Shown here: in pieces, positions 28,183 through 58,762 of the stretch
Layout: every line of letters starts with the position of its first letter
Numbering within the stretch: position 1 is the first letter of the stretch
DNA from: an uncultured Bacilli bacterium
GTDB taxonomy: Bacteria > Bacillota_I > Bacilli_A > RFN20 > CAG-449
Direction: 5' to 3'
Length of the DNA stretch: 64,000 bases
Assembly (NCBI GenBank): GCA_944332525.1
Contig: CALVKD010000001.1
Location: 49,841-113,840 of the forward strand
Program-made: the position numbers and the translations under genes
The notes under the pieces: model-generated
The model's input: only the letters and a program-made list of their open reading frames with translations
Told to the model about the DNA's origin: nothing
The model's database searches: none

Positions 28183-28671
28183 TTATAGATAAGTAAAATC
28201 ACTATTATCGACATAGTATGCCGACCTTTGAAGATTTTTCCCGCTGATAAGAAATTTAAGAGAATCGCTTCTATCAGCAATTAGGTAAGTAATCCGAAAC
28301 CCACTCAGCGCAAAATTATTTGCGTCATTTTTTTCGCTTAAGGTAAACGAATCGGAAAAATACCCTAAATTTGCAGCTTGGACATTATCAGAAAGCGAAT
28401 ATGAAGAATTGATAACAATTAATTTTAAATCGTCGATTTGTAGATTTTTATAAGTTATCAATAATGAAACATCATAATATCCGCTTTGCTTACTTTCAAA
28501 TGAAGTAACCGAATAATTAAACGGTGCCTCCTCAAGCGATGAATAATCGCTTTGATTAAGTAAAAATTGTAAGTCGCTTTGATAAATATCCGCGTAGTTT
28601 TTATCGGTTACTCGATAACCATTACAAGAAACTAGCAAAACAAGTGACAATAAGTAAATAATCTTCTTCAT
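28183..28671 (-). CDS. hypothetical lipoprotein
   Basis: Signal peptide with LLVSC lipobox (MKKIIYLLSLVLLVSCNG). The rest is Ser/Tyr/Asp-rich with no recognisable domain. Start chosen at the internal M to avoid overlap with leuS. Confidence 0.45.
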   Translation of the reverse strand: MKKIIYLLSLVLLVSCNGYRVTDKNYADIYQSDLQFLLNQSDYSSLEEAPFNYSVTSFESKQSGYYDVSLLITYKNLQIDDLKLIVINSSYSLSDNVQAANLGYFSDSFTLSEKNDANNFALSGFRITYLIADRSDSLKFLISGKNLQRSAYYVDNSDFTYL

Positions 28672-28672
28672 A

Positions 28673-31075
28673 CTATTTAGCGACAATATTGACAATCTTA
28701 TTCTTTACAACAATAACTTTCTTAATTTCTAAACCGGCTAATTTACCTTTAATTACTTCATTATTTAAGGCAATTTCTCTCACTTCATTTTCTTCTTGAT
28801 CGACTTTGATTTCAATTGTCGCACGAAGTTTTCCATTAACTTGAACACCGATAGTTATAGTCTGCTTAACAAGTTTGCTTTCATCATAAACCGGCCACTT
28901 TTGATAATCTACTATCTCTTTTTCACCAGTCATCTGATAGAGTTCTTCACCTAAATGAGGACAGACGCAAGAAAGCATCTTAGCGAAATCCTTTAAATAA
29001 GGGACATATATTTCTTTAGCCTTATAACAGTCGTTAATGAAAACCATCATTTGAGCTAAAGCCGTATTAAACTGTAAGTTTTCAAAATCATGATCAACCT
29101 TTTTAATTAAGAAGTTAAATGAATAATCGAGTTCACCATTATTTTCATTTCTCCATTTATCGGTGAATTCTTTTTCGCTGTAGAGACGGTATACGCGGTC
29201 TAAGAAACGTTTAGCACCATCTAAACCGCTATTTGACCATGGAAGAGAAGCCTCTAATGGACCCATGAACATTTCATAGAAACGTAAAGCATCAGCGCCA
29301 TAACTCTTAACAATATCATCTGGATTGATGACGTTTCCGCGAGATTTTGACATCTTTTCACTATTTTCACCAAGAATCATTCCTTGATGGAAAAGTTTTT
29401 TAAATGGTTCTTTGCATTTTACTACTCCGATATCGTAAAGGAATTTATGCCAGAAACGAGCATATAATAAGTGAAGAACCGCATGCTCAGCTCCGCCGAT
29501 ATATAAATCGACTGGCAACCAGTGCTCAATTAATTTAGGATCAGCTAAAGCTTTAAGGTTGTGTGGATCAATATAGCGAATATAGTACCAGCACGAACCC
29601 GCCCATTGCGGCATTGTATTAGTCTCTCTCCGGCCTTTCATGCCGTCAATAGTAACTTCAAGCCAATTTTTTGCATGAGCTAACGGAGATTCTCCTTCTC
29701 TTGACGGTGCGAAATTATCGACTTCCGGCAAAGTTAATGGGAGCTCATCTTCTGGGACAGCGCGAATGGTTCCGTCTTCCATATGAATTAGAGGAATTGG
29801 TTCTCCCCAATATCTTTGACGTGAGAAAAGCCAGTCGCGTAATTTATAATTAACTTTTCTTCTACCTTGTTTTAATTCGATAAGTTTATCGGTTATCGCT
29901 TTCTTTGCTTCAGCAATATTCATTCCGTCAGCAAACGAAGAATTAATATGTTTTCCATCTCCTTCGTACGCTTTTTCAGAAATGTCTGCTTCAATAACCT
30001 TGCGAATAGGCAAATTATATTTCTTAGCGAATTCGTAATCGCGTTGATCATGGCTTGGTACTGCCATAACGGCACCAGTTCCATAGCTAGCTAAAACATA
30101 GTCGCCGATAAAAACTGGGACTTCTTCTCCGTTAATTGGATTGATGCAGTAAGCACCGGTAAAAACGCCTGTTTTATCTTTATTTAAATCGGTGCGTTCC
30201 ATATCGGATTTTGTTTGGCATCTCTTAATATATTCCTCAACGGCAGCTTTTTGCTCAGGAGTAGTGATTTTTTCAACTAATGGATGCTCAGGTGCTAAGA
30301 CGCAATATGAGCAGCCAAATAAAGTATCCGCTCTCGTCGTAAAGACAGTGAAAATATAATTTGTACCCTTAACTTTGAAATCGATTTCTGTACCTTCGCT
30401 ACGTCCAATCCAGTTTCTTTGCATTTCTAATGTCGATTGCGGCCAATCTAATTCATCGAGGCCTTCTAACAACTTATCAGCGTAGGCTGTAATTTTTAAA
30501 ACCCATTGACGCATTGGTTTTCTGATAACTGGAAATCCTCCGCGTTCACTCTTTCCGTCGATAACTTCTTCATTAGCTAAAACAGTCCCTAAATCTGGGC
30601 AGTAGTTAACCGGAACATAACGAACTTCAGCCAATCCTTTTTCATACATCTTTAAAAAGATCCACTGCGTCCATTTATAGTAATCTTCATCTGTTGTTCT
30701 AATTTCCTTGCTCCAATCGTAAGAAAAACCTAACATCTGCATTTGCTCGCGGAAATGGTCAATATTCTTATATGTAAATCCTTTCGGATGATGGCCGGTT
30801 TTTAAAGCAAATTGTTCTGCTGGCAAACCAAAAGCATCAAATCCCATCGGATGTAAAACGTTGAAGCCTTTCATCCTTTTCATTCTCGCGACGATATCTG
30901 TCGCTGTATATCCTTCTGGATGTCCGACATGTAATCCTTGTCCTGATGGATATGGAAACATATCCAATACGTAATATTTCGGCTTAGAAAAATCATAGAC
31001 ATCACAAAAATACGTCTGGTGATCAGCCCAGTATTTTTGCCATTTCTTTTCAATATTTTGATAATCGTAACCCAT
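28673..31075 (-). CDS. leuS: leucyl-tRNA synthetase
   Basis: HVGHPEGYT (HIGH) and KMSKS motifs. 800 aa. Confidence 0.97.
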
Positions 31076-31135: not shown

Positions 31136-32053
31136 TTATTCAACTTGATTATCGCCGCTTCCGTCTTTACTAATAAAGACATTTTCAACGTTTTTAATCA
31201 AGGCGAACATTTTTTCATGAAAACTTCGCATACTCAAAATTTTCTTTTCAAAAATTTCTGATGATATGCGGTGGAAAATTCCATCCACAAAAGTCATTTT
31301 TAAATCTTTAACAAAGAGCAAGAGATGCTCATCATCAAAAACGAGATTGATTTTATGATTAAAATAATTATCGATTTCAATAACTGATTTAATACCTCCA
31401 TTATCCATAAAATCATAAATTTTATTACCTGAAGCATAGATATAAAAATTATCAGATAATGAATAAGAGGCAAAACCATAAGCATTAAGAGCTTCATTTT
31501 CATAATATTTTTTTGCATATACTTCCTCATCGCAGATTTGAAAGAAGAAGTTTGTCGCGACATTAAATTCGGAAATAAATATCATTCCGTATCCAGTTTT
31601 AACGTGATCATTATAACGGACGAGATAAATATCAAACGATCGTTCGCTAGTAGCATCAGAATAAGCCTCTAGATAATAGAATTTTTTCAGAAAAAATATT
31701 TTTTTTAAATAGTTATCGCGTTCTTGATTAATGATGATGTTATTGTCTAAAAGATATATTTCTTCAAGTTTGCATTCATTTAGAAAAATCTTCTTGTATT
31801 CGTCGAGATAGATTTTATTAAGCCTTAGGCTATAGAGAAATGCTGATAAAACAATTAAGATGGTAATCAAGACAAAATATAAACTAACAAAATATATTAA
31901 TCCGTGAATAATTTCCCTCTTTTCTAGATATTTTAATAAAAAATATCCACCAAATAGTAAAATTGCGAAAACGACGATAAAAATCGAGAGTTTTAGAAAA
32001 GAAAAAAACTTGATTCTATTTAATTGCTGAACGCGGACTTCATAGTTTTTCAT
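31136..32053 (-). CDS. hypothetical membrane protein: two N-terminal TM helices and a domain of about 230 aa of unknown function
   Basis: 305-aa ORF with hydrophobic segments at about 15-40 and 50-76. No recognisable motif. Last gene of the jetABC-like operon. Confidence 0.45.
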   Translation of the reverse strand: MKNYEVRVQQLNRIKFFSFLKLSIFIVVFAILLFGGYFLLKYLEKREIIHGLIYFVSLYFVLITILIVLSAFLYSLRLNKIYLDEYKKIFLNECKLEEIYLLDNNIIINQERDNYLKKIFFLKKFYYLEAYSDATSERSFDIYLVRYNDHVKTGYGMIFISEFNVATNFFFQICDEEVYAKKYYENEALNAYGFASYSLSDNFYIYASGNKIYDFMDNGGIKSVIEIDNYFNHKINLVFDDEHLLLFVKDLKMTFVDGIFHRISSEIFEKKILSMRSFHEKMFALIKNVENVFISKDGSGDNQVE

Positions 32054-32107
32054 AATTCAATTATAGAAGATGCGTTTTAACATTTAAACAGAGATCAAGT
32101 ATTTTAA

Positions 32108-32557
32108 TTAATCATTGTATCGAGAATTATCGAGATTCTTTTTTCTTTTTTTCCTCTTTCTAACGAAGATTAAGCAGATGATGAATAATCCGCCATAGAT
32201 AATTAACATAAAGTAATTATTCCAAGCTAGGAAATTCGTCAAAGGCTCTGTGTTATTAACAAAATTTCCAATAAACACAGCAAGAGCATTGCTTAAGTAA
32301 GCATGAAACGTTGCTAATGGAAGAGATATAGCATTTAACGCCTGATCTAGAAATGCTCCAATATGGTTCAAATCTTTCAAATTATCGGTTAATACACCGG
32401 TCGATGATAGATAGTAAAGCCCATTGGAAAGGAAGAAAGCAAAGAAAAAGAAGGTGATAAAACGTGTTTTTTTAGCTATCACGACGATGATAACCATCAA
32501 AACAATTAATATGATAAGAAATATCAGACTATTTAGCAAAAGGTCTAATCCATCCAT
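32108..32557 (-). CDS. hypothetical small polytopic membrane protein with a basic C-terminal tail
   Basis: 149 aa, 3-4 hydrophobic segments, C-terminal RKRKKRKK. AGGAGA SD sits 11 nt after the jetC-like stop, so translational coupling is likely. Confidence 0.4.
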   Translation of the reverse strand: MDGLDLLLNSLIFLIILIVLMVIIVVIAKKTRFITFFFFAFFLSNGLYYLSSTGVLTDNLKDLNHIGAFLDQALNAISLPLATFHAYLSNALAVFIGNFVNNTEPLTNFLAWNNYFMLIIYGGLFIICLIFVRKRKKRKKNLDNSRYND

Positions 32558-32568
32558 AATAGTATCTC

Positions 32569-35500
32569 CTATTTACCATGATACACGAATGGATCCATAT
32601 GCGAAACATTTTCTTGAGGTTTTCTTGTAACAACTAAGGTTCTATCGACAACCGTTGAGATATCGAGAACTTTCTCTGGTGGTGCCGAAATGATTACTTG
32701 CAAATCGAAATCTTTTAAAATCTTAATGGATTCAACAATTCTGTTACGATCCATCTTTGAGAAAGCTTCATCAAAGATAACTAATCTGATGCAGTTAGAA
32801 ATATTCTTATTGGCCTTAACGCGGTAAAGCTGTGAGAAAGAAGCTAAGATTGAGATATAGAATGGTGTTTGCGTTTCACCGCCAGAAGCCTTTTTAATAT
32901 TTCTCGCTAAGGAATAGACGGCTCCGTCTGGCTTTTTAACTTTTAAGTCGAAGATTAAATATGAGCGATAATCTGTGAACTTTTCAATATTTTGAGCGAC
33001 TTGTTCAGCTTTATCCTTACCTTCTCCATCAGAGATTAAACGGAATAAATTATCCATGACATCTTTATGCTTGAGCAAGAAAGCTTCATCATCGCTATCG
33101 ACATCGAGCAACATCTCATCGGTAATCATATTGTAATAATCGATATATTGAGGATTTGGTTGAATTGTAAATTCATAGGAATCCTGACCGAAATGCGCAT
33201 CTTTTAAAGCTTCGTTAAGGTCACCGATTTGTAAACGCGCCTGTTCAATAGCCGTTTTTAATTTAAAAATGAAATCATCCTTAAATTCTTTAGTTGCCTT
33301 TTGATGTGCATCTTCAATTTTGACTAAGTACTGAGGAAGTTTGACATCGCGCAGCGTTGTTAATTCTCTCTCAAAATCATCATTATCTTCTTTAGTGATA
33401 TCATATGATAATTTATAGGTAATAACGTAAGAAGACCGACGATCTTTCAATTGTTCATTAAGGTTTCTAATTCTGTTTTGAACCTTAGAGTAGATATCAT
33501 CATATTTTAAACGGATATCAGCTAATGAGAGATTGCTTGCGAGTTCGTTATCAAAGGTTGGTTTTGCTGTTTGCTCAACCCATTCCGTATCAAATGAATT
33601 CTCAATTTCTTCCATGTAAGCTGAGGATTTCTTAACTTCTTGCGGAATCTTTTCTTCTTTAGTGACTTTAATATTATTCTGTAAAGCACCTTTTTCGAGA
33701 ATTAATTCATTTTTCTGATTGTTAAGTTGTTCGATATCGGTATCAATTCTCTTAATCTTCGTATCAGTAGTTTGCAGATCTTGACTCGTACCAGCTTTTA
33801 ATTCTTCTTCGTACTGTTTAAGATTATTCTTTAATGAAGCGAGTAAATCGCTGCTATCGAGCTGATTGAGGCAAATCATCTGCTCAGATTGCGACATAAT
33901 ATCGAGTTCTTTAGCTTCAGATAAAGTATCAACTAATTCTTTTAATGCTCCGATTGATTTAGCTTCTAAATCGAGTTCTTTCATTCTCTGATCGCGGACT
34001 TCACGCGATACCGATCTTCCAATCAACGGATAACGGTAAAGGCGATCTGGTATGACAAAGGAAGCAAATGAACGATATCCAATGCAGGAAGGACAAATAC
34101 CATGTCCGGATTCTCTAGCTTCTTGGAAAGTTTCACATTTTGTTAATCGACCAATTAAGAAATTAGTATAATCGCGGGCACCTTTATGATCGGTAATAAT
34201 TTCTTCGGCCAAAGAATTTTCTTCAGCTTCAAAATTATGCTGAGCTAACGCTCTCTCATCGACTAAACCCGTCCGGTGATAGCCGTTTCTCTTCATAATA
34301 CCCGGCAATAACTTATTAGCAACTTCGTAATATTTATCCTTAACGAATAAATTAAGTTTCTGAGCGGAAATAAATCCCTCAATTGCATTAATCCAGCGCT
34401 TATTACGAATATCGACCAAATCAGCGTAAATTAAGACATCAACTTTTTCATGGAAATGATCTTCAAGAGCCAATTTTAATTGATTTCTGACATTGAGGAA
34501 AGCATCGTCATAGTATTTACCGCTGCTTGAAGTAACTAAAGTCTGCTTTTGCTGGCTAATTCTATTGATAACCATACCGATAGATGACTTTAAGACGCTA
34601 TATTCTTCAATAACAACATTTTTAAAATCACTAATAGCCGATGAAAAGTTTTTGAATAAGTCTGGTGTCAAAGAGCCTAAATTCAAGGCTTCTTTGGTTG
34701 CCATTAACGCTTTATCAAGATTGGCACATTCTAATTCAAGATGCTTCAAAGACTCTAATACTTTGTTATCATCAGTATGCTCAGCAGAACTCAAGCATAA
34801 TGAATTAATTTTATTTTCATAATTTAAGAAATTATTAACATACGTATTAATGCGAGTATATAAAGCTTGAAGATTTTCTTCAATCTCGCAAACTTTTCTT
34901 TCAGCATCTTGATAAGATTTTCTTAAATCTTGAGTTAATTTATAATTATCATTAGAAAATTTATAAGCGATTAAGGTTTGCTTTTGTTCTTCAAGAGCTT
35001 CAATATCGCTTTCGATTTCCCTAATTGAAGAATCAATTTCAGCAATTCTTTCCTCAGCGCGGCTGATATCATTATGATAAGATGCGATATAATCAGAAGA
35101 AATCTGTAAGAAAATTCTCTTCGAGATATAGGAAGCTAAGGACATTTCTTTACGTTTATCAACTATCTGTTGATAAATATTATGAATTTCTTCAAGCGAT
35201 TTAATTTTTACCATCATCTCATCGGCTTCGATTTTTAAGCGTTCATATGAGGTAATATTTGATTTCATCGATTCAATATTAATATCATTAGGAACATCGC
35301 AAACATATTCGGTGATAAAGGATTCAATATTGGTGATAGGTATAAAGGAAACAGCCTTCTTAAAGAGTGAGAAGTATTTTTCCTTAAGATTACCAAATTT
35401 TTCTTTAATGACCCCTTGGTATTGCGCGTTTGAATCACAGAAAATAAATTTATCGCTATTATAATTTGCACTAAAATACTCTTGCAAAGTCTTTTGTGAC

Positions 35501-35937
35501 ATTGGAACGCGATCGATTAAGAAATGGTTTTCTGGAAATTTATCTTCGAGATAGAAGAAGCGGTGTTGCTCAGAACCATCATCGAAAACATCAAAAACGA
35601 CACCGACAGTAAACGGTTGATTCAAGACATCATCGAAAAATTCCAGTGCGATATAGGAAGTAAAGCGACCAGTTCTTAAAAATTTTGTCGATCCATCTTC
35701 ATTATCACCGACTTCACAGCGCAGATACCCTTTTAAAGTACGACCGGATTTTTCATTAGCAGCCTTATTAAAAGAACGACCATAGGTGTCGCCAAGCAAA
35801 ACAACTTGCATAGCATCGATAACTGTCGATTTTCCGGCAGCATTAACACCGGTTAAAAAGTTTAACATGCCGAATTCAACTTCAATATTTTGGAAATAGT
35901 GCCAGTTGATCAGACGCAATTTAGTTAATTTTTTCAT
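32569..35937 (-). CDS. MukB/MksB/JetC-like SMC-family ATPase
   Basis: 1122 aa. N-terminal LRLINWHYF...GVNAAGKST (MukB-type Walker A). Long coiled-coil regions around a globular hinge of about 170 aa (GICPSCIGYRS). C-terminal SGGE signature, Walker B LVIFDEAFSKMD and a D-loop. Confidence 0.7.
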   Translation of the reverse strand: MKKLTKLRLINWHYFQNIEVEFGMLNFLTGVNAAGKSTVIDAMQVVLLGDTYGRSFNKAANEKSGRTLKGYLRCEVGDNEDGSTKFLRTGRFTSYIALEFFDDVLNQPFTVGVVFDVFDDGSEQHRFFYLEDKFPENHFLIDRVPMSQKTLQEYFSANYNSDKFIFCDSNAQYQGVIKEKFGNLKEKYFSLFKKAVSFIPITNIESFITEYVCDVPNDINIESMKSNITSYERLKIEADEMMVKIKSLEEIHNIYQQIVDKRKEMSLASYISKRIFLQISSDYIASYHNDISRAEERIAEIDSSIREIESDIEALEEQKQTLIAYKFSNDNYKLTQDLRKSYQDAERKVCEIEENLQALYTRINTYVNNFLNYENKINSLCLSSAEHTDDNKVLESLKHLELECANLDKALMATKEALNLGSLTPDLFKNFSSAISDFKNVVIEEYSVLKSSIGMVINRISQQKQTLVTSSSGKYYDDAFLNVRNQLKLALEDHFHEKVDVLIYADLVDIRNKRWINAIEGFISAQKLNLFVKDKYYEVANKLLPGIMKRNGYHRTGLVDERALAQHNFEAEENSLAEEIITDHKGARDYTNFLIGRLTKCETFQEARESGHGICPSCIGYRSFASFVIPDRLYRYPLIGRSVSREVRDQRMKELDLEAKSIGALKELVDTLSEAKELDIMSQSEQMICLNQLDSSDLLASLKNNLKQYEEELKAGTSQDLQTTDTKIKRIDTDIEQLNNQKNELILEKGALQNNIKVTKEEKIPQEVKKSSAYMEEIENSFDTEWVEQTAKPTFDNELASNLSLADIRLKYDDIYSKVQNRIRNLNEQLKDRRSSYVITYKLSYDITKEDNDDFERELTTLRDVKLPQYLVKIEDAHQKATKEFKDDFIFKLKTAIEQARLQIGDLNEALKDAHFGQDSYEFTIQPNPQYIDYYNMITDEMLLDVDSDDEAFLLKHKDVMDNLFRLISDGEGKDKAEQVAQNIEKFTDYRSYLIFDLKVKKPDGAVYSLARNIKKASGGETQTPFYISILASFSQLYRVKANKNISNCIRLVIFDEAFSKMDRNRIVESIKILKDFDLQVIISAPPEKVLDISTVVDRTLVVTRKPQENVSHMDPFVYHGK

Positions 35938-36566
35938 TCTGCATCCTCCATAAATTCTTCATCCGGAAGTGATTCAACTTGCTTATATAGGCTTTGAATT
36001 ACTTCGTAATCAACCACAAATGCAATTGAAGGATTAATATAGAAAGTTAAATTTTTCTCATAAAAATCCCCGCTTATTCTCGTTATAATATTATGTTGTT
36101 CTAAAAAGCGATATGACGATTCAAGCGATGAATACGAGACCCTTTTATCTTGACGAATTAAATGCATATTAATTAAGCACTGCATTAATTCATGGCTAGT
36201 AAAACGGACGACTTGATTAAGTGCGTCATCATTATTTTGAGTTTCGTAGACATATCTTAAAGCAAAAATAACTAAGGATGTTTTTAAATCCAATTTCAAA
36301 TGATTTTCTTCATATTCATTTTTAATAGAAATTACCCCGCGCGATGAATCTTTATTAACAATCCATCCAGATAAAGAGAGATAGTTTGAAACTAAATCAA
36401 GATGGCGCTCAATAAAGGAATACTCTTTACTCGCCCGCATCATCTTCGCATTGCGGTCGTAATAATCTCTGAGAATAAAACTTTTCAGCATCAAAGTATT
36501 AACCACATGGGCGAATTCCTCTTTTTCGACATTGCGCAATTGTTCATATTCTTCTAGCATCGTCAA
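35934..36566 (-). CDS. MukE/MksE/JetB-like kite subunit candidate
   Basis: 210 aa, overlapping both neighbours by 4 nt. Size and position match the kite subunit of MukFEB-like operons. Assigned by context, not by motif. Confidence 0.45.
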   Translation of the reverse strand: MTMLEEYEQLRNVEKEEFAHVVNTLMLKSFILRDYYDRNAKMMRASKEYSFIERHLDLVSNYLSLSGWIVNKDSSRGVISIKNEYEENHLKLDLKTSLVIFALRYVYETQNNDDALNQVVRFTSHELMQCLINMHLIRQDKRVSYSSLESSYRFLEQHNIITRISGDFYEKNLTFYINPSIAFVVDYEVIQSLYKQVESLPDEEFMEDAE

Positions 36567-37993
36567 TTCTCCTTTTTAGTATAGATATAATCTGGTGCAT
36601 TAACTTTATCATTAACTTCGACGTTGACGTTTAATTTATCCTCGCGGTCCATATCATAGAAACTAATCGGTGCTGTTGCTTTAATTGCTCCAAGCATCAA
36701 ATAGAGGAAATCATCAACGCTTTCAACTTTACAATCGTGGACGCGTATTTGTTTTTTATCTTGAAAATTTTCAGCCATAAATTCCATAACTCTCTCATCG
36801 GAGTAACGCGCTGTTTCAGCCATTGCCATCGTCATTTGCGAATCATCGAAAATATGTTCATCATCAGGTAATGGAAGCGGATCAGAGAAGAACTTTTGAT
36901 TTCTCTCATATGGTTTTCTAAGCGATCCCTCATCATAATAACCCTGCGTGTAGAGTTTTATTGAAGAGCCAAATGCCCTAATAATATTTGGATATGAGGA
37001 ATTTCTATCTTGCTCATTTTTGGAAAGATTTCTAGCTAATACCGTAAAAATCTTTTCGAGTTTACCCTTAACCGATTTATCGTGGTTATTGAGGAAGATG
37101 ACCTTATCCGCCGAAGCTTTAACATATTCCGATTGCGAAACATCAATATTATTAATTTCCGTAGACAAGCGGAGATAGATATCTTGAATTCTCGTAATCT
37201 TTTTTACTACATCATCAGTAGCTTCTAATCGCGATTTGACCGATTTATTTTCTTTAAGGCATTGATCAATTAATTTTTCACGTACTGTATCAACTTCTAA
37301 CCAGCGTTTCAAAATTGAAGAAATTGGTCCGTGATAAAGAGTGATTGAATCATGGGTTTTTAACGGATGGTAAATTGGATCGACGACGTCTTCACGGCAG
37401 ATATCAAAATGCTGCTTGAGGACTTCGTTAGGCTCAAACATATCGCTGAGCTGACGTTTATATACTTTAATTGAATGATCGAGTTTAGCTACCTCAATGG
37501 CTAATGATTCAGTATTGTTATAGGCATTTTCTAAGGTTTTATACATTGATTCATCTTGATTATCATCTTCATATTTTAAATCAGCATATGTTGTATGCAC
37601 GTAGCTAACATAATGATTTGCAGAAGTGTCGGCAAATTCGTAAATCAGTTTCAACATATTAACAGAATATGAAGGAAGCAAGATATATTCGGTGCCTGTT
37701 TTTGTGTCGTAATCAATATAAATCCAACCTGTTTCAATTAAGCGTTTAACAATTTGATTTGCTTTCGCGCCAATTGATGTTTCGCTTACTACACCATCTT
37801 CTTCATCAACGTAAGAATTTAAATCATCGCCGGAACGACTCTTTAATAATTCGACATAATCATTTTTTCTTATGCGCGCGCGATAAAGGTTTAATGCATC
37901 ATAAAGCACGATTAAAGCATCGCCGTAAACTCCCTTATTACGCGATGCTAAAATTGAAAAGAAATTATCCGGTAATTTTGCAAATAAATTCAT
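36563..37993 (-). CDS. MukF/MksF/JetA-like kleisin subunit candidate
   Basis: 476 aa, first gene of a translationally coupled three-gene operon with the SMC-like ATPase. Assigned by size and context. Confidence 0.45.
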   Translation of the reverse strand: MNLFAKLPDNFFSILASRNKGVYGDALIVLYDALNLYRARIRKNDYVELLKSRSGDDLNSYVDEEDGVVSETSIGAKANQIVKRLIETGWIYIDYDTKTGTEYILLPSYSVNMLKLIYEFADTSANHYVSYVHTTYADLKYEDDNQDESMYKTLENAYNNTESLAIEVAKLDHSIKVYKRQLSDMFEPNEVLKQHFDICREDVVDPIYHPLKTHDSITLYHGPISSILKRWLEVDTVREKLIDQCLKENKSVKSRLEATDDVVKKITRIQDIYLRLSTEINNIDVSQSEYVKASADKVIFLNNHDKSVKGKLEKIFTVLARNLSKNEQDRNSSYPNIIRAFGSSIKLYTQGYYDEGSLRKPYERNQKFFSDPLPLPDDEHIFDDSQMTMAMAETARYSDERVMEFMAENFQDKKQIRVHDCKVESVDDFLYLMLGAIKATAPISFYDMDREDKLNVNVEVNDKVNAPDYIYTKKEN

Positions 37994-38049: not shown

Positions 38050-38802
38050 TTATTTTCTATTTTTTTCAATATATTCAGAATCAAGCTTTTTTAATTCTTT
38101 GAGTTTCTCAGAAATCATCGCTTTTATCTTATCAGCTAACTCTTGAGTGTTCATATTTTTATATTCTTCATATTTTAATGGTTCAAAGATATGAATAAAT
38201 ACTGGCTGTTTCTTCAAATTGGAACTTTTGGAGTCAAGTATCCGAAATGAGCCCCACATCGCAACGGGGAAAATATCTACTTTAGCCTGCATCGCCATTT
38301 TTAATGATCCAGCTTTAAAATCGCCAAGAGTATGGTCTTTATCTTTGCTTCTTGTTCCCTCTGGAAAAATAACCCATTTTTTATTATCTTGTAAAAGCGA
38401 TGTTCTCACCTGCTGCATTACCTTGATTTCTTGTCTAAGATTTTCTCTTTCGAGATAAAGTCCATCAATAGCCTTAATGACTTTTCCAACATAAATATAT
38501 TTCTCAGCTTCCTTTTTAGCGACGAAAGTCGTTATCTGCGGAGAAATAGCTACAATCATCAAGGCATCCATAAAAGATTGATGATTAGGCGTCAATAAAT
38601 AACTAGGCTGTACTGGTAATGTCTTTTTCCCGGTTAAAATGATTTCGACATTTAACGCTTTAATAGTATTAATTATAATTTCCCGCATTTGATTATAGCG
38701 TTTCTGCAAGGAATAATTTTGTTTTGAAGCGGAATATATGAGCGGATACTTTCTTATTAAGTATGGTACTGCCCGAAAAACATAACCGAGATATTTATTC
38801 AT
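38050..38802 (-). CDS. plsC: 1-acyl-sn-glycerol-3-phosphate acyltransferase
   Basis: HQSFMD (HX4D) and FPEGTRS acyltransferase motifs. 250 aa. Confidence 0.8.
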   Translation of the reverse strand: MNKYLGYVFRAVPYLIRKYPLIYSASKQNYSLQKRYNQMREIIINTIKALNVEIILTGKKTLPVQPSYLLTPNHQSFMDALMIVAISPQITTFVAKKEAEKYIYVGKVIKAIDGLYLERENLRQEIKVMQQVRTSLLQDNKKWVIFPEGTRSKDKDHTLGDFKAGSLKMAMQAKVDIFPVAMWGSFRILDSKSSNLKKQPVFIHIFEPLKYEEYKNMNTQELADKIKAMISEKLKELKKLDSEYIEKNRK

Positions 38803-38810
38803 AAAGCCTC

Positions 38811-39107
38811 CTATAAGCCACGCTTATTAAATTGGTAATCGGCTCCGGCAATATACATAAGAGCTTCAACGACGATAATAATTTTTCCCTCGTAAACTTC
38901 TAATCTACCATCGACCGAGATCAATGTGCCATTTTTATACGAAAATAAAGAATTACGATCATCGCGCGACCACATCATCAAAGGAAATATATCTTTTGGA
39001 TAGACTCCTTGATCATCTTTATATTGACGCGTGACTTCAATATAACGAATTGGGGATTTACTTTCTCTTTCGAGTAAAACTCCATTTAGTGAGACATGAT
39101 TAATCAT
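38811..39107 (-). CDS. short single-stranded-DNA-binding protein paralog (OB fold only, no acidic C-terminal tail)
   Basis: MINHVSLNGVLLERE...MMWSR...ISVDGRLEV...IIVVEAL aligns with the SSB OB fold (MLNRVVLVGRL...VTWRR...GVDGRLQ). About 98 aa. Start chosen at the internal M. Confidence 0.6.
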   Translation of the reverse strand: MINHVSLNGVLLERESKSPIRYIEVTRQYKDDQGVYPKDIFPLMMWSRDDRNSLFSYKNGTLISVDGRLEVYEGKIIIVVEALMYIAGADYQFNKRGL

Positions 39108-39178
39108 AGCAAAACACCTCACCTATATTTTACCATGTTAAGAAATAACCGCGTCCGCGACTAATCGCAGATGAGTCT

Positions 39179-56140: not shown

Positions 56141-58762
56141 TTAATCATTAATACCTGGAATAATAATTTCCTCAGGTTCTGCACCTTTGTTGCGGTTTTG
56201 CTTTGCTAATTTTTCTCTCTTAGCCATTAATTTTTTAGCTCTTCTTTCTTTGAGTTTTGTATTTTTGAACTTCTTTTCGAAAACAGAAGCTAAAGGTGTA
56301 ACCATAAAGACGGCGAATACTCCATTAATGAACATAGTAATTGCAAAGACAATATAGATATTCATCATTCCAATTGGTGATAATGGAATTAAAACAAGAG
56401 GCAAAACAGTGAAGCAAACAAACGATAGACCCATTTGCGTAACATTGCGCTTATAAGCTTTTTCCAGTAATTCCACTCTCTGATCGCTTGTTGTAATTTT
56501 AACCTTTGACTCATTTTTAAGTTGATTTAATGAAGTTCCAAGCGGAATCATAAACAATAACGAGAGAAGCATTCCGCCGAGAACAGCAATTCCGAGATAA
56601 GCAGATGTCTCAAACCGAGCTAATGACAATATTGCAATAGCAATAAATGTTGATCCTGCGACAGAGATAAGCGATGCAAGAGCCATCGTGTAGCGATATC
56701 TAATTAAGAAATAGACAAACACAATACCCAATGATACACCCATTAAAACGAATGTATTATAGAAATCGCTTGTAACGATACCAGGAGTTACAGTATATGA
56801 ATTAATCATTGGTCCTTCATAACCTTCCATAGCATCAAAAGTTCTAACAAAGTTATCTAGTGCGATATATGTTTCACTATCAAGTGATAGAGGAGACGAT
56901 AAATCAGCGTAGAAATATAAATATGTATCCCCTTCTTGGCCAAAAGGATTTTCCATATTTGTGACAACCCAAGAATTAGTTACTTCAACTTCACCAAATG
57001 AATTAATATACGCGACAAAGTTATCTAACTGAGTACCTTCTACCGGTGTAAAGTTCTCCGGAATTTTCTCTTCGAAAAGCGTCTCAATACTTGTTCTAAC
57101 TTCAATTCTGCCAAATGGTTCAAAGGAATTATAATTAAATGCACCAGCGGTAAATCCTAATGTAATTAATGAGACAGCAGATAAAGCGACTAAGCCAAGA
57201 TATACGCCTAAAGTAGCTTTAAATCCTTTTTTGACATTTAATTTTTGAATTGAATTTTCTGGGACTAAGTTTACTCCATCCCCAGAATCATTAATATATT
57301 TATCATTAATGCGATATAATTTGTGTTTATTTTCTAATTTGCTATTAAAGAGGAAATGATTGAGAATACGTGAAACTAAGAAAACTAAGATAACGCTAAG
57401 TAATGATGAGAAGACAAAGAATAACGAGAAGTTTTGAATACTTTGGCGAGATATTAAACTAAGGACAATACCTAAGACAAAGAAAATGACGGTTGTATCA
57501 ACAGCGGTAGAAATAGTTTTTCTAAATCCTTCTGCCGAAGCTTTACTAATTGCTCTGCCAAGATAAACTTCTTCTTTGATTCTGCGGTAATAAACACATA
57601 GCATATTAATCGCAAAACCAAATGTCACAACTATGGAAATTATGGTTATAGGATTAACTATGAAGTTAAATAAATTAAGAATGAACATATCAGCAAGAGC
57701 TGTCAAAGCAACTCCGATAGCACCAGAGATTGCCATGAATCCATAGGAAATAAGTAGGAAAAGACAAACTAGAACAGTACTAACGATAAAAGTAACATTC
57801 ATCCACATAACCGCATCGCCACCATATTCAGGAGTATAACTACGGCGGTATACTTCAGTAATCTCATAATCGCTTAAACTCTTTTGATTAAACATTCTCT
57901 CAAATGAGTGAGCGGATTCAGCATTCATTAAAATTGTCGATTCGGTATTTGCTGCGTATCCATAAGCTGCAAATGTCAAATAGTAACGCGCATCTTCGCC
58001 TTCACCTTCAACGGTAAATATTGAATTATCAATGCCTTCGCTTTCACCAGTTGTTGTTTTCCAAACGCGGTGGGAATCAAAAGCTGCTGAAGTTGAAGTA
58101 TCATCACTTGTGGATTCAGATAAATCGATAACCGCCAAGACTTTGCTTTGGAGTTGTTCGCCTGTCATACCAAATGTTTCAGAAACATAGTTAGTATCAG
58201 CTAAATCTGTATAATCTAAATCATCGGTTTTTCCTTGCCATAAGACTAATAAAGAATTGCCTACTTCATCTTTAGCATTATTTATAACACCTTGCACTTC
58301 AGAAGTAACTTCAAGACGAATATATGCTTGGTTTTGATAATTGTATAAAACTTCAGCAGATCCAGGAACAATTGGATCGCTATCAGTTCCATCAGTGCCA
58401 TCAGTGGTATAGAAAGAAAAATTTCCAGATGACCCGACACTTCTTAAAATATTGTCAACGCTATTAGAGTTACGTGAGCCTAATACGATTTTAATTTCGT
58501 AATTATTTTCTCCATCAGATGCCTTTTGAATACTATAATTCGTAGCACCTGAAGCTTCAAGACGATCACCCATAACGCTAACGACATTATCGATATCGAT
58601 TGTTGTCTCTTCATTACCAGCTCCGGAAATTTTATATAAAACTTCTGTACCATTAGCAAATTCTTGGGAATATGAGAGGTTTTCATTAATTCCTTGAACA
58701 TTAAATAGCACCAATCCGAGCATGGAGATTGTCAAGACGATAAATGCAATTAATCGACGCAT
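56141..58762 (-). CDS. secDF: protein-export membrane protein SecDF (fused)
   Basis: 873 aa. An N-terminal TM helix and a large extracytoplasmic domain, then two clusters of about 6 TM helices typical of a SecD-SecF fusion. Confidence 0.75.
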   Translation of the reverse strand: MRRLIAFIVLTISMLGLVLFNVQGINENLSYSQEFANGTEVLYKISGAGNEETTIDIDNVVSVMGDRLEASGATNYSIQKASDGENNYEIKIVLGSRNSNSVDNILRSVGSSGNFSFYTTDGTDGTDSDPIVPGSAEVLYNYQNQAYIRLEVTSEVQGVINNAKDEVGNSLLVLWQGKTDDLDYTDLADTNYVSETFGMTGEQLQSKVLAVIDLSESTSDDTSTSAAFDSHRVWKTTTGESEGIDNSIFTVEGEGEDARYYLTFAAYGYAANTESTILMNAESAHSFERMFNQKSLSDYEITEVYRRSYTPEYGGDAVMWMNVTFIVSTVLVCLFLLISYGFMAISGAIGVALTALADMFILNLFNFIVNPITIISIVVTFGFAINMLCVYYRRIKEEVYLGRAISKASAEGFRKTISTAVDTTVIFFVLGIVLSLISRQSIQNFSLFFVFSSLLSVILVFLVSRILNHFLFNSKLENKHKLYRINDKYINDSGDGVNLVPENSIQKLNVKKGFKATLGVYLGLVALSAVSLITLGFTAGAFNYNSFEPFGRIEVRTSIETLFEEKIPENFTPVEGTQLDNFVAYINSFGEVEVTNSWVVTNMENPFGQEGDTYLYFYADLSSPLSLDSETYIALDNFVRTFDAMEGYEGPMINSYTVTPGIVTSDFYNTFVLMGVSLGIVFVYFLIRYRYTMALASLISVAGSTFIAIAILSLARFETSAYLGIAVLGGMLLSLLFMIPLGTSLNQLKNESKVKITTSDQRVELLEKAYKRNVTQMGLSFVCFTVLPLVLIPLSPIGMMNIYIVFAITMFINGVFAVFMVTPLASVFEKKFKNTKLKERRAKKLMAKREKLAKQNRNKGAEPEEIIIPGIND

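What the first reader, a model, noticed from the sequence alone, without database searches (positions are those of the whole stretch)
31136..32557. Two uncharacterised membrane proteins translationally coupled to the SMC-like ATPase
The 149-aa protein has 3-4 TM segments and a poly-Lys/Arg tail (RKRKKRKK). The 305-aa protein has two TM helices followed by a roughly 230-aa domain with no motif I can recognise. Both are co-oriented with jetABC and tightly spaced from it, with gaps of 11 nt and 54 nt. A basic-tailed membrane protein plus a bitopic sensor-like protein downstream of a DNA-loop-extruding ATPase is an unusual pairing.
Basis: inference. Interest (0 to 1): 0.6.

Follow-up and report, generated by a model that had tools for sequence, protein, structure and literature searches.

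The report
Nuclease-free Wadjet with two membrane partners
In a small group of uncultured gut bacteria, a DNA-looping motor (JetABC) that normally works with a nuclease to destroy plasmids has no nuclease gene beside it. It is instead always followed by two otherwise unknown membrane proteins, which points to a membrane-attached version of this machine whose job has not been tested.

Summary
The two ORFs are real. They lie on the minus strand at 32108-32557 (149 aa) and 31136-32053 (305 aa), 11 nt and 54 nt from the upstream gene, and both are under strong purifying selection (dN/dS 0.055 and 0.028).

The upstream genes are a type I Wadjet jetA-jetB-jetC set with no jetD nuclease gene. They sit in core housekeeping DNA (FtsK, PlsC, LeuS).

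In every related locus I could read (21 of 21 with enough upstream DNA, in at least three different flank arrangements), a 305-aa homologue follows jetC, and none has jetD. In Clostridia, jetC is followed directly by jetD.

The 149-aa protein has three strong TM segments and a conserved cytoplasmic polybasic tail ending in x-Y-x-D.

Best reading (about 40%): a nuclease-free, domesticated JetABC tethered to the membrane by these two proteins. Rivals are a membrane effector replacing JetD, or mere synteny.

No physical interaction is shown. Whether the genome has Smc-ScpAB, or jetD elsewhere, could not be tested.

The parts
36563..37993 (-). jetA (kleisin-like subunit, 476 aa)
   Evidence: Pfam PF18982 JetA E 4.3e-80. 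PADLOC JetA1 E 1.6e-104. Overlaps jetB by 4 nt.
35934..36566 (-). jetB (KITE-like subunit, 210 aa)
   Evidence: Pfam DUF4194 E 2.6e-15. PADLOC JetB1 E 2.1e-59. dN/dS 0.003 against L002. Overlaps jetC by 4 nt.
32569..35937 (-). jetC (SMC-like ATPase, 1122 aa). Walker A (GVNAAGKST), signature (SGGETQ) and Walker B (LVIFDEAF) motifs are readable in the translation.
   Evidence: PADLOC JetC1 E 0, 1051 bits. Pfam AAA_29, AAA_23 and SbcC_Walker_B. Translation.
32558..32568 (-). 11-nt jetC/149-aa spacer. An AGGAG Shine-Dalgarno overlaps the jetC stop codon.
   Evidence: Sequence read directly. No terminator-like site on the minus strand between jetC and leuS.
32108..32557 (-). M149: a 149-aa integral membrane protein. 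It has three strong TM segments, one weak amphipathic segment, and a cytoplasmic polybasic tail (RKRKKRKK) ending in the conserved S/D-x-Y-x-D.
   Evidence: Homologues directly follow jetC in relatives. dN/dS 0.055. No Pfam, NCBIfam or PADLOC family.
31136..32053 (-). M305: a 305-aa protein with an N-terminal two-TM hairpin and a predicted cytoplasmic alpha/beta domain (about residues 97-295). The domain has a TtfA-like fold and is a divergent DUF3137.

Best explanation
M149 and M305 are the fourth and fifth genes of a lineage-specific jetA-jetB-jetC-M149-M305 module derived from a type I Wadjet system. The jetD nuclease gene is missing from the operon, and the module has become a vertically inherited part of the core chromosome.

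M305 is a TM hairpin carrying a cytoplasmic TtfA-like scaffold domain. M149 is a small multi-pass protein with a cytoplasmic polybasic tail and a conserved C-terminal Tyr-acidic motif.

Proposed mechanism: the two proteins form a membrane platform that docks the JetABC loop-extruding motor to the inner face of the membrane, filling the accessory role that JetD holds in ordinary Wadjet systems. DNA reeled in by JetABC would then be held at the membrane and not cut. This would make a nuclease-free, MksBEF-like machine for chromosome organisation or segregation, or for sequestering small circular DNA.

Shown: gene content, absence of jetD within the DNA examined, strict co-occurrence, purifying selection, and the predicted fold.

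Inferred: topology, physical contact with JetABC, and the biological role.
For: 1. Identity of the neighbours: JetA1, JetB1 and JetC1.

2. jetD is absent.
- No jetD in the 64-kb window or in 20 related loci. tblastn with 12 JetD proteins against 319 kb found nothing better than E 0.44.
- All 14 Clostridia-type jetC loci with readable downstream DNA (L010-L016, L018-L020, L022, L023, L025, L026) have a 386-423-aa ORF immediately after jetC.
- PADLOC confirmed this ORF as JetD1 in the 5 loci tested (E 1e-96 to 1e-119).

3. Co-occurrence.
- The M305 family has only 18 representatives.
- 21 of 21 loci with enough upstream DNA have jetC, whole or as a 3' fragment, upstream of the M305 homologue. 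It is directly upstream apart from the M149 gene and, in L004, L005 and L017, an inserted hydrolase gene.
- Of the 15 full-length representatives, 10 were matched to a held locus and 4 more were looked up. Twelve of these loci had enough upstream DNA to judge.

4. The link survives rearrangement of both flanks.
- PlsC...LeuS: the window, L003, L007, L009, L032, L033, L037, L038, L040.
- GlgCD downstream, with a choloylglycine hydrolase inserted between the two genes: L004, L005, L017.
- GlgCD downstream after a 595-nt non-coding gap: L029.
- Ribosomal protein L28 and a small bPH-domain membrane protein (bacterial pleckstrin-homology-like domain) upstream, with GlgCD downstream: L027, L028.

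5. Core-gene behaviour.
- The window holds only housekeeping genes.
- JetABC dN/dS is 0.003-0.021, equal to LeuS.
- JetB is 76% identical in L009, against LeuS 77%.
- No relatives on plasmids, phages or IMG/VR contigs.

6. M305 is a confident model with a TtfA-like fold. TtfA is a membrane-anchored accessory protein with a cytoplasmic domain that localises to poles and septa (PMC6593404). Positive-inside counts place the M305 domain and the M149 basic tail in the cytoplasm, where JetABC is.

7. Precedents.
- C. glutamicum MksBEFG is confined to the poles by the membrane-associated scaffold DivIVA (PMC10123090).
Against: - All linkage evidence is gene neighbourhood within one clade that also conserves wider synteny. 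No interaction was predicted or measured.
- M149 is missing after jetC in the most divergent lineage (L027/L028).
- Spacing is variable, and M305 may have its own promoter.
- The net charge of the M305 domain is not conserved (-11 to +6), and nothing in either protein resembles a known DNA-binding or SMC-binding module.
- TtfA's known partner is a membrane transporter, so M305 could serve an unrelated membrane protein.
- jetD could be encoded elsewhere in the genome.
- Presence or absence of Smc-ScpAB in these genomes was not testable here.
- The M149 structure model is poor (pLDDT 56).
Confidence: 0.4

Rival explanations
1. Alternative effector. M149 and M305 replace JetD as the executing arm of a plasmid or phage defence system. 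When JetABC stalls on a fully extruded small circle, it activates the membrane pair, which permeabilises or depolarises the membrane (abortive-infection logic). This would resemble the exchangeable effectors of Lamassu and the TM effectors of CBASS and retrons.
For: - They occupy the exact operon position of jetD, immediately 3' of jetC.
- JetC keeps intact ATPase motifs.
- Small TM proteins are common defence effectors, and Lamassu SMC-like systems use varied effectors including membrane-targeting ones (PMC10586767).
- The two proteins evolve much faster between genera (about 30-40% identity) than JetABC (61-76%), as effector or interface proteins often do.
Against: - The module is embedded in core housekeeping DNA and inherited vertically, with dN/dS as low as LeuS.
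- There is no defence-island or mobile-element context, and no relatives on plasmids, phages or IMG/VR contigs.
- There are no PADLOC hits.
- The M305 fold matches scaffold proteins, not pore formers.
- TM segments conserve only hydrophobicity.
Confidence: 0.2
2. No functional link. M149 and M305 are envelope or membrane-biogenesis accessory proteins, for example a TtfA-like cofactor of some transporter. They merely sit next to jetABC in a clade with a conservative gene order.
For: - The wider neighbourhood PulA-OB-PlsC-jetABC-...-LeuS is itself conserved in many members.
- The closest fold, TtfA, works with a lipid transporter (PMC7458404).
- DUF3137 proteins are mentioned in Bacteroidetes and Mycoplasma without any SMC connection.
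- There is a promoter-like site and no SD before M305.
- A hydrolase gene can be inserted between the two genes.
Against: - The pair stays with jetC through at least three independent rearrangements of both flanks.
- No family member was found away from jetC (21 of 21 loci).
- The family is confined to exactly the clade whose jetABC lacks jetD.
- No terminator lies between jetC and the two genes.
Confidence: 0.25
3. Canonical Wadjet with jetD relocated. A jetD gene exists elsewhere in these genomes. M149 and M305 only position an otherwise ordinary plasmid-cleaving JetABCD at the membrane, analogous to DivIVA for C. glutamicum MksBEFG.
For: - Only about 64 kb of this genome and 10-23 kb of each relative were readable.
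- There is a precedent for spatial confinement of Wadjet.
- The JetB N-terminal helix, reported to contact JetD, is retained.
Against: - In all 14 other jetC loci with readable downstream DNA, a JetD-sized ORF is fused to the operon right after jetC, and PADLOC confirmed JetD1 in the 5 tested.
- No jetD remnant was found in 319 kb of clade DNA.
- From my own knowledge of Wadjet operon structure, split Wadjet operons are not a known arrangement.
Confidence: 0.1

Closest known systems
Type I Wadjet (JetABCD / MksBEFG / EptABCD) anti-plasmid system
   Same: The same three core subunits in the same order, with overlapping reading frames. They are recognised by type I PADLOC models. JetC ATPase motifs are intact.
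   Different: No jetD Toprim nuclease gene in the operon or within the DNA examined. Two integral membrane proteins take its place. The setting is the core chromosome with housekeeping-level purifying selection.
MksBEF (P. aeruginosa) and MukBEF: nuclease-free condensins thought to derive from Wadjet
   Same: An SMC-kleisin-KITE trio without a nuclease. It is chromosomal and vertically inherited. The review PMC10586767 proposes an origin by loss of JetD.
   Different: As far as I know, and in the papers found here, those systems have no dedicated membrane-protein genes in the operon. Here two are conserved. Chromosome-organising activity is untested for this clade.
C. glutamicum MksBEFG confined to the poles by DivIVA
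   Same: A Wadjet-type complex held at a membrane-associated site by a non-SMC partner (PMC10123090). It is the closest functional analogy to the proposed tethering.
   Different: DivIVA is a peripheral, general polar scaffold encoded elsewhere, and the system keeps its MksG nuclease. Here the candidate tethers are integral membrane proteins encoded in the operon, and the nuclease is missing.
TtfA (Rv0383c/MSMEG_0736), the MmpL3 accessory factor; PDB 6t84
   Different: 7-8% sequence identity and no sequence-level relationship. TtfA has one TM segment where M305 has a hairpin. TtfA is specific to mycolate producers and partners a lipid transporter.
Pfam DUF3137 (PF11335)
   Same: The M305 family matches this model over the domain: 12 of 15 members, best E 1.5e-7; residues 156-272 in the window protein.
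   Different: The window protein scores 15 bits, below the 26.1-bit gathering cut-off. The DUF itself has no known function; only 2 papers in the library mention it. No SMC association is reported for it.
Lamassu (LmuB SMC-like protein plus exchangeable LmuA effectors)
   Same: An SMC-family sensor whose partner module can vary, including membrane-targeting effectors (PMC10586767). It is the conceptual model for the effector-swap rival.
   Different: JetC is a full kleisin/KITE-bound loop extruder, not LmuB. LmuB scores only a weak partial hit (E 1.3e-9, against E 0 for JetC1). M149 and M305 match no Lamassu or other PADLOC effector.

Membership tests
Wadjet type I (JetABCD) | JetA kleisin-like subunit | tested here: met
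   PF18982 E 4.3e-80; PADLOC JetA1 E 1.6e-104.
Wadjet type I (JetABCD) | JetB (DUF4194, KITE-like) subunit | tested here: met
   PF13835 E 2.6e-15; PADLOC JetB1 E 2.1e-59.
Wadjet type I (JetABCD) | JetC SMC-like ATPase with intact Walker A, Walker B and signature motifs | tested here: met
   PADLOC JetC1 E 0. Motifs read in the translation.
Wadjet type I (JetABCD) | JetD Toprim nuclease encoded with jetABC | tested here: not met
   The genes after jetC are M149 and M305, which have no PADLOC or Pfam JetD match. tblastn with 12 JetD proteins against the window and 20 clade loci (319 kb) found nothing better than E 0.44. The rest of the genome could not be searched.
Wadjet type I (JetABCD) | Restriction of small circular plasmids | not testable with these tools
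   Needs transformation or plasmid-loss assays.
MksBEF/MukBEF-type nuclease-free condensin | SMC + kleisin + KITE operon without a nuclease, vertically inherited in the chromosome | tested here: met
   Synteny and identities track the neighbouring core genes. dN/dS 0.003-0.021.
MksBEF/MukBEF-type nuclease-free condensin | Acts in chromosome organisation or segregation, and may replace or supplement Smc-ScpAB | not testable with these tools
Function needs Hi-C or genetics.
Pfam DUF3137 (PF11335) | Score at or above the Pfam gathering cut-off (26.1 bits) | tested here: not met
   The window protein scores 15 bits, E 0.023. Twelve of 15 relatives match at E <= 1, best E 1.5e-7. This is a divergent relative, not a certified member.
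TtfA family | TtfA fold of the soluble domain | tested here: met
TtfA family | Detectable sequence homology to TtfA | tested here: not met
   A profile of 15 family members against all PDB sequences at E <= 10 does not recover 6t84. Structural alignments show 7-8% identity.
TtfA family | Membrane anchor with a cytoplasmic domain | tested here: inconclusive
   Positive-inside counts favour N-in/C-in in all 15 members. This is a prediction only. TtfA topology is experimental (PMC6593404).
TtfA family | Partner of MmpL3 in mycolate export | not tested
   No MmpL-type gene was noticed in the window annotations. Bacilli do not make mycolic acids (my own knowledge).
Known defence TM effectors (PADLOC-DB) | Match to any PADLOC effector model | tested here: not met
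   No hits for M149, M305 or three M305 homologues.

The most novel reading that the evidence does not exclude
This would be the first SMC-family loop extruder with dedicated integral-membrane subunits. In one form, it is a membrane-tethered, Wadjet-derived condensin that has become a core chromosome-handling machine in a lineage of gut Bacilli, possibly standing in for or complementing Smc-ScpAB. In the other form, it is a fourth Wadjet type in which the JetD nuclease is replaced by a membrane effector pair.
Probability: 0.35. Interest if true: 0.8.

Novelty: new variant of a known kind. Interest (0 to 1): 0.55.

Why it matters
Wadjet, MksBEF and MukBEF are the main examples of how an SMC motor moves between immunity and chromosome maintenance. 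A clade caught with the nuclease gone and two new, strictly co-inherited membrane partners gives a natural test of two questions. What does JetABC do without JetD? Can loop extrusion be coupled to the membrane?

It would also give a first functional context to the DUF3137/TtfA-like fold outside mycobacteria. And it would warn defence-system annotators that JetABC hits in these gut Bacilli are probably not plasmid-cleaving Wadjet.

Tried and rejected
- Word-indexed homology searches found only the species' own cluster for M305 and for M149 alone. A profile of nine M149 homologues found four clusters.
- The afdb50 fold library was unavailable, so I could not see how other DUF3137 models are annotated.
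- The AF2 model of M149 was too poor to use for a fold search (pLDDT 56).
- I tried to map E. coli JetC F919, the JetD docking residue, onto this JetC through PDB sequences. phmmer found no PDB hit for full-length JetC or its C-terminal head, even at E <= 1.
- The JetB alignment of the no-JetD and JetD-bearing clades showed only a 5-residue insertion and a retained N-terminal helix. It was not discriminating.
- The M305 domain charge is not conserved (-11 to +6), so a simple DNA-binding reading was dropped.
- Profile searches of both families against PDB sequences gave nothing meaningful.
- BFVD viral structures gave no match. Plasmid, phage and IMG/VR searches gave no relatives.
- Promoter and terminator scans are at chance level in this AT-rich DNA and cannot define the transcript.
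- Literature searches for Wadjet or JetABC with transmembrane partners found nothing relevant.
- I first guessed that the organism belongs to the order RF39 or is 'Mollicutes'-like. I do not assert this. Record titles say only uncultured Bacilli, Firmicutes or Mollicutes, and some relatives carry Cse60- and SpoIVB-like sporulation genes.
Full report
**Observation**

The minus strand carries a tight co-directional run of genes:

| Gene | Coordinates | Length |
|---|---|---|
| plsC-like acyltransferase | 38050-38802 | 250 aa |
| 476-aa ORF | 36563-37993 | 476 aa |
| 210-aa ORF | 35934-36566 | 210 aa |
| 1122-aa ORF | 32569-35937 | 1122 aa |
| M149 | 32108-32557 | 149 aa |
| M305 | 31136-32053 | 305 aa |
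| leuS | 28673-31075 | 800 aa |

Pfam and PADLOC identify the three large genes as JetA, JetB and JetC of a type I Wadjet system (JetA PF18982 E 4.3e-80; PADLOC JetA1, JetB1 and JetC1 E 1.6e-104, 2.1e-59 and 0).

- 11 nt between the jetC stop and the M149 ATG, with an AGGAG overlapping the stop codon.
- 54 nt between M149 and M305.

An independent gene caller on an identical ENA contig calls the same 149-aa and 305-aa products. Hydropathy and the AlphaFold2 model confirm the membrane segments described.

**The genes are real and constrained**

I compared the window with the closest MAG locus, L002, where JetC is 98.6% identical and dS is about 0.5-0.7.

| Gene | dN/dS |
|---|---|
| M149 | 0.055 |
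| M305 | 0.028 |
| JetA | 0.021 |
| JetB | 0.003 |
| JetC | 0.012 |
| LeuS | 0.018 |
| FtsK | 0.041 |

Both small genes fall in the same range as their neighbours.

A genome scan with JetC returned 25 loci.
- All 14 Clostridia-type loci with readable DNA after jetC (L010-L016, L018-L020, L022, L023, L025, L026) have a 386-423-aa ORF immediately after jetC.
- PADLOC confirms this ORF as JetD1 in the five loci tested (E 1e-96 to 1e-119).
- In the window and in its relatives labelled uncultured Bacilli, Firmicutes or Mollicutes (JetC 44-66% identical), that position is taken by homologues of M149 and M305.
- tblastn with 12 JetD proteins against the window plus 20 clade loci (319 kb) gives only noise, E >= 0.44.

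**Context**

Every other gene I annotated in the 64-kb window is housekeeping. The list includes RelA, HisS, AspS, IspG, EF-P, PlsY, enolase, ParE/ParC-type topoisomerase, YqeH, NadD, XerD-like recombinase, DinB, RecN, XseAB, NusB, Asp23, LeuS, PlsC, pullulanase, FtsK, MraZ/MraW, ThyX, PheST, FtsZ/FtsA, RecJ, RuvAB, Obg and RadC.

There is no mobile-element or defence-island signature. Identities of JetABC between genera track those of the flanking core genes. For L009 they are JetA 63%, JetB 76%, JetC 61%, PlsC 70%, PulA 69%, FtsK 58% and LeuS 77%. This indicates vertical inheritance.

**Co-occurrence test**

- The exhaustive HMMER search of 1.84 billion representatives finds only 18 M305 relatives at E <= 1e-3.
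- The word-indexed searches find one cluster each for M305 and M149.
- Of the 15 full-length representatives, 10 matched a held locus and 4 more were looked up.
- In total I hold 23 loci plus the window. All 21 with enough upstream DNA show jetC, complete or as a 3' fragment, upstream of the M305 homologue. It is directly upstream apart from the M149 gene and, in L004/L005/L017, an inserted hydrolase gene. The other two (L034, L039) are too short to tell.

The link holds in several different flank arrangements:
1. PulA-OB fold-PlsC-jetABC-M149-M305-LeuS (window, L003, L007, L009, L032, L033, L037, L038, L040).
2. jetABC-M154-choloylglycine hydrolase-M318-GlgCD (L004, L005, L017). L029 is similar, with a 595-nt non-coding gap between M154 and M305.
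3. RsgA...L28-(small bPH membrane protein, divergent)-jetABC-M301-GlgCD (L027, L028). Here M149 is absent.

No relatives occur on plasmids, phages or IMG/VR contigs. The genes therefore do not 'occur widely without an SMC neighbour'. Within the limits of a single clade, the linkage is specific.

**What the proteins are: M305**

- With a 15-sequence family alignment, AlphaFold2 gives a confident model (pLDDT 85.3, pTM 0.80). It has two long helices (5-45 and 53-96) forming a TM hairpin, then an alpha/beta domain (100-294).
- Foldseek independently gives 6t84 (E 5.4e-4, prob 1.00) and then CCDC47 (E 4.4e-3).
- TtfA is a membrane-anchored accessory protein of the MmpL3 lipid transporter. It has an experimentally cytoplasmic domain, localises to poles and septa, and has no obvious ligand pocket (PMC6593404; PMC7458404).
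- At the sequence level there is no relationship to any solved structure. There is a weak but consistent relationship to Pfam DUF3137: 12 of 15 members match, best E 1.5e-7, while the window protein scores 15 bits, below the 26.1-bit cut-off.
- DUF3137 is itself uncharacterised.
- K+R counts are 4-7 in the N-terminus, 2-7 just after TM2 and 0-4 in the loop. They favour N-in/C-in in all members, which puts the domain in the cytoplasm.
- The domain's net charge varies from -11 to +6. This argues for a protein-protein scaffold and against a DNA binder.
- Conserved positions (E93, L96, S132, S135, Y147, G156, Y213) do not resemble a catalytic motif.

**What the proteins are: M149**

- The family shares three strong hydrophobic segments and one weak amphipathic segment.
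- There is a short K/R loop between TM1 and TM2.
- There are 7-9 K/R residues in the last 22 residues, ending in a near-invariant S/D-x-Y-x-D/Y. Y147 and K137 are invariant.
- A three-TM, N-out/C-in topology puts both basic clusters inside. This is an inference.
- The AF2 model is unreliable (pLDDT 56).
- No Pfam, NCBIfam or PADLOC family matches either protein.

**Mechanism**

In canonical type I Wadjet, JetABC extrudes DNA. On small circles it stalls and recruits a JetD dimer. JetD docks through its aCAP domain on the JetC larynx (residue F919) and probably on a JetB N-terminal helix, then cleaves the DNA (bioRxiv 10.1101/2023.11.03.565488).

Two precedents bear on a nuclease-free, membrane-linked version:
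- C. glutamicum MksBEFG is held at the poles by the membrane-associated scaffold DivIVA (PMC10123090).

My best-supported reading (confidence about 0.4) combines four observations: jetD is lost, the module behaves like core genes, two membrane proteins with conserved cytoplasmic parts are strictly co-inherited, and one of them has a scaffold-type fold. On this reading, M149 and M305 tether a domesticated, nuclease-free JetABC to the membrane. Extruded DNA would then be held there, for chromosome organisation or segregation, or for non-nucleolytic sequestration of small circles.

The gene content, co-occurrence, selection and fold are shown. Topology, physical contact and role are inferred.

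**Rivals**

1. The pair is a replacement effector that damages the membrane when JetABC detects a plasmid (0.2). The operon position and the fast divergence of the two proteins favour this. The core-genome setting, the strong constraint, the scaffold fold and the lack of PADLOC matches argue against it.
2. The pair is functionally unrelated to jetABC and is merely syntenic (0.25). The generally conservative gene order of the clade, TtfA's transporter partnership, the variable spacing and a possible own promoter for M305 favour this. Persistence through three flank rearrangements and the 21 of 21 co-occurrence argue against it.
3. jetD is encoded elsewhere and the system is an ordinary Wadjet with localisation factors (0.1). 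I could not test this because only the neighbourhoods were readable.

**Limits**

- I could not search whole genomes for smc/scpAB or jetD.
- I could not predict complexes.
- I could not consult the AlphaFold database.
- I could not map the JetD-docking residue, because JetC gave no PDB sequence hit.

**Verdict**

The finding is real and more interesting than stated. It is a new variant of the Wadjet/MksBEF kind, a nuclease-less jetABC with two conserved, lineage-specific membrane partners. All of the functional evidence is comparative-genomic. Interest is 0.55.

Noticed in passing
window 1-64000: No Rfam family reaches its gathering score and no tRNA gene is found in 64 kb. The window carries five aminoacyl-tRNA synthetase genes (hisS, aspS, leuS, pheS, pheT), which in many Firmicutes have T-box leaders. 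leuS has only a 60-nt upstream gap.
   Followed up: partly
window 38811-39122 (-): A 103-aa OB-fold protein with sub-threshold SSB similarity (E 0.0036) sits between the pullulanase gene and plsC. It is conserved in that position in nearly all relatives (L002, L003, L007, L009, L029, L032, L033, L037, L038, L040). Its function is unknown.
   Followed up: partly
L027 3902-4348 (-); L029 2931-3356 (-); L017 4167-4613 (-); L005 6237-6713 (-): In the lineages where the flanks are rearranged, a small (141-158 aa) two-TM protein lies divergently upstream of jetA. The L029 copy has a bacterial PH-like/DUF6585 domain (E 6.4e-7). It is absent from the window's arrangement. It could be a third membrane partner or a coincidence.
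   Followed up: partly
L017 13971-14951 (+), also L004 and L005: A choloylglycine (bile-salt) hydrolase family gene (PF02275, E 5e-92) is inserted between the M149 and M305 homologues in one sub-lineage. The pair therefore need not be contiguous.
   Followed up: yes
L029 9407-10000: A 595-nt AT-rich stretch with no called gene separates the M149 and M305 homologues in this lineage. It was not analysed for RNA or remnants beyond the JetD tblastn, which was negative.
   Followed up: partly
window 35934-36566 (-) compared with L010-L025 JetB: JetB of the no-jetD clade carries a 5-residue insertion (…DRNAKMMR…) relative to JetB of the jetD-bearing Clostridia systems. The N-terminal helix reported to contact JetD is retained.
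   Followed up: partly
window 32569-35937 (-): phmmer of this JetC, full length or C-terminal head, finds no PDB sequence even at E <= 1. JetC structures (8AS8, 8BFN) are cited in the literature. This suggests either extreme divergence or a filtering effect on coiled-coil sequence.
   Followed up: partly
L033 11638-11820; L038 11604-11786; L040 11579-11758 and 16497-16900: Relatives carry Spore_Cse60 and SpoIVB-type (Peptidase_S55) genes near the module. At least some members of this clade therefore look like spore formers and not wall-less Mollicutes, despite some record titles.
   Followed up: no
window 28183-28695 (-): A 170-aa putative lipoprotein (LPAM-like signal, TTG start) overlaps the 3' end of leuS by 23 nt. 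It has the highest dN/dS of the genes compared (0.11).
   Followed up: no
window 56141-58762 (-): In an 873-aa protein, only residues 317-458 match SecD/SecF_C (E 5.5e-7). It may be an unusually long or fused SecDF-like protein.
   Followed up: no
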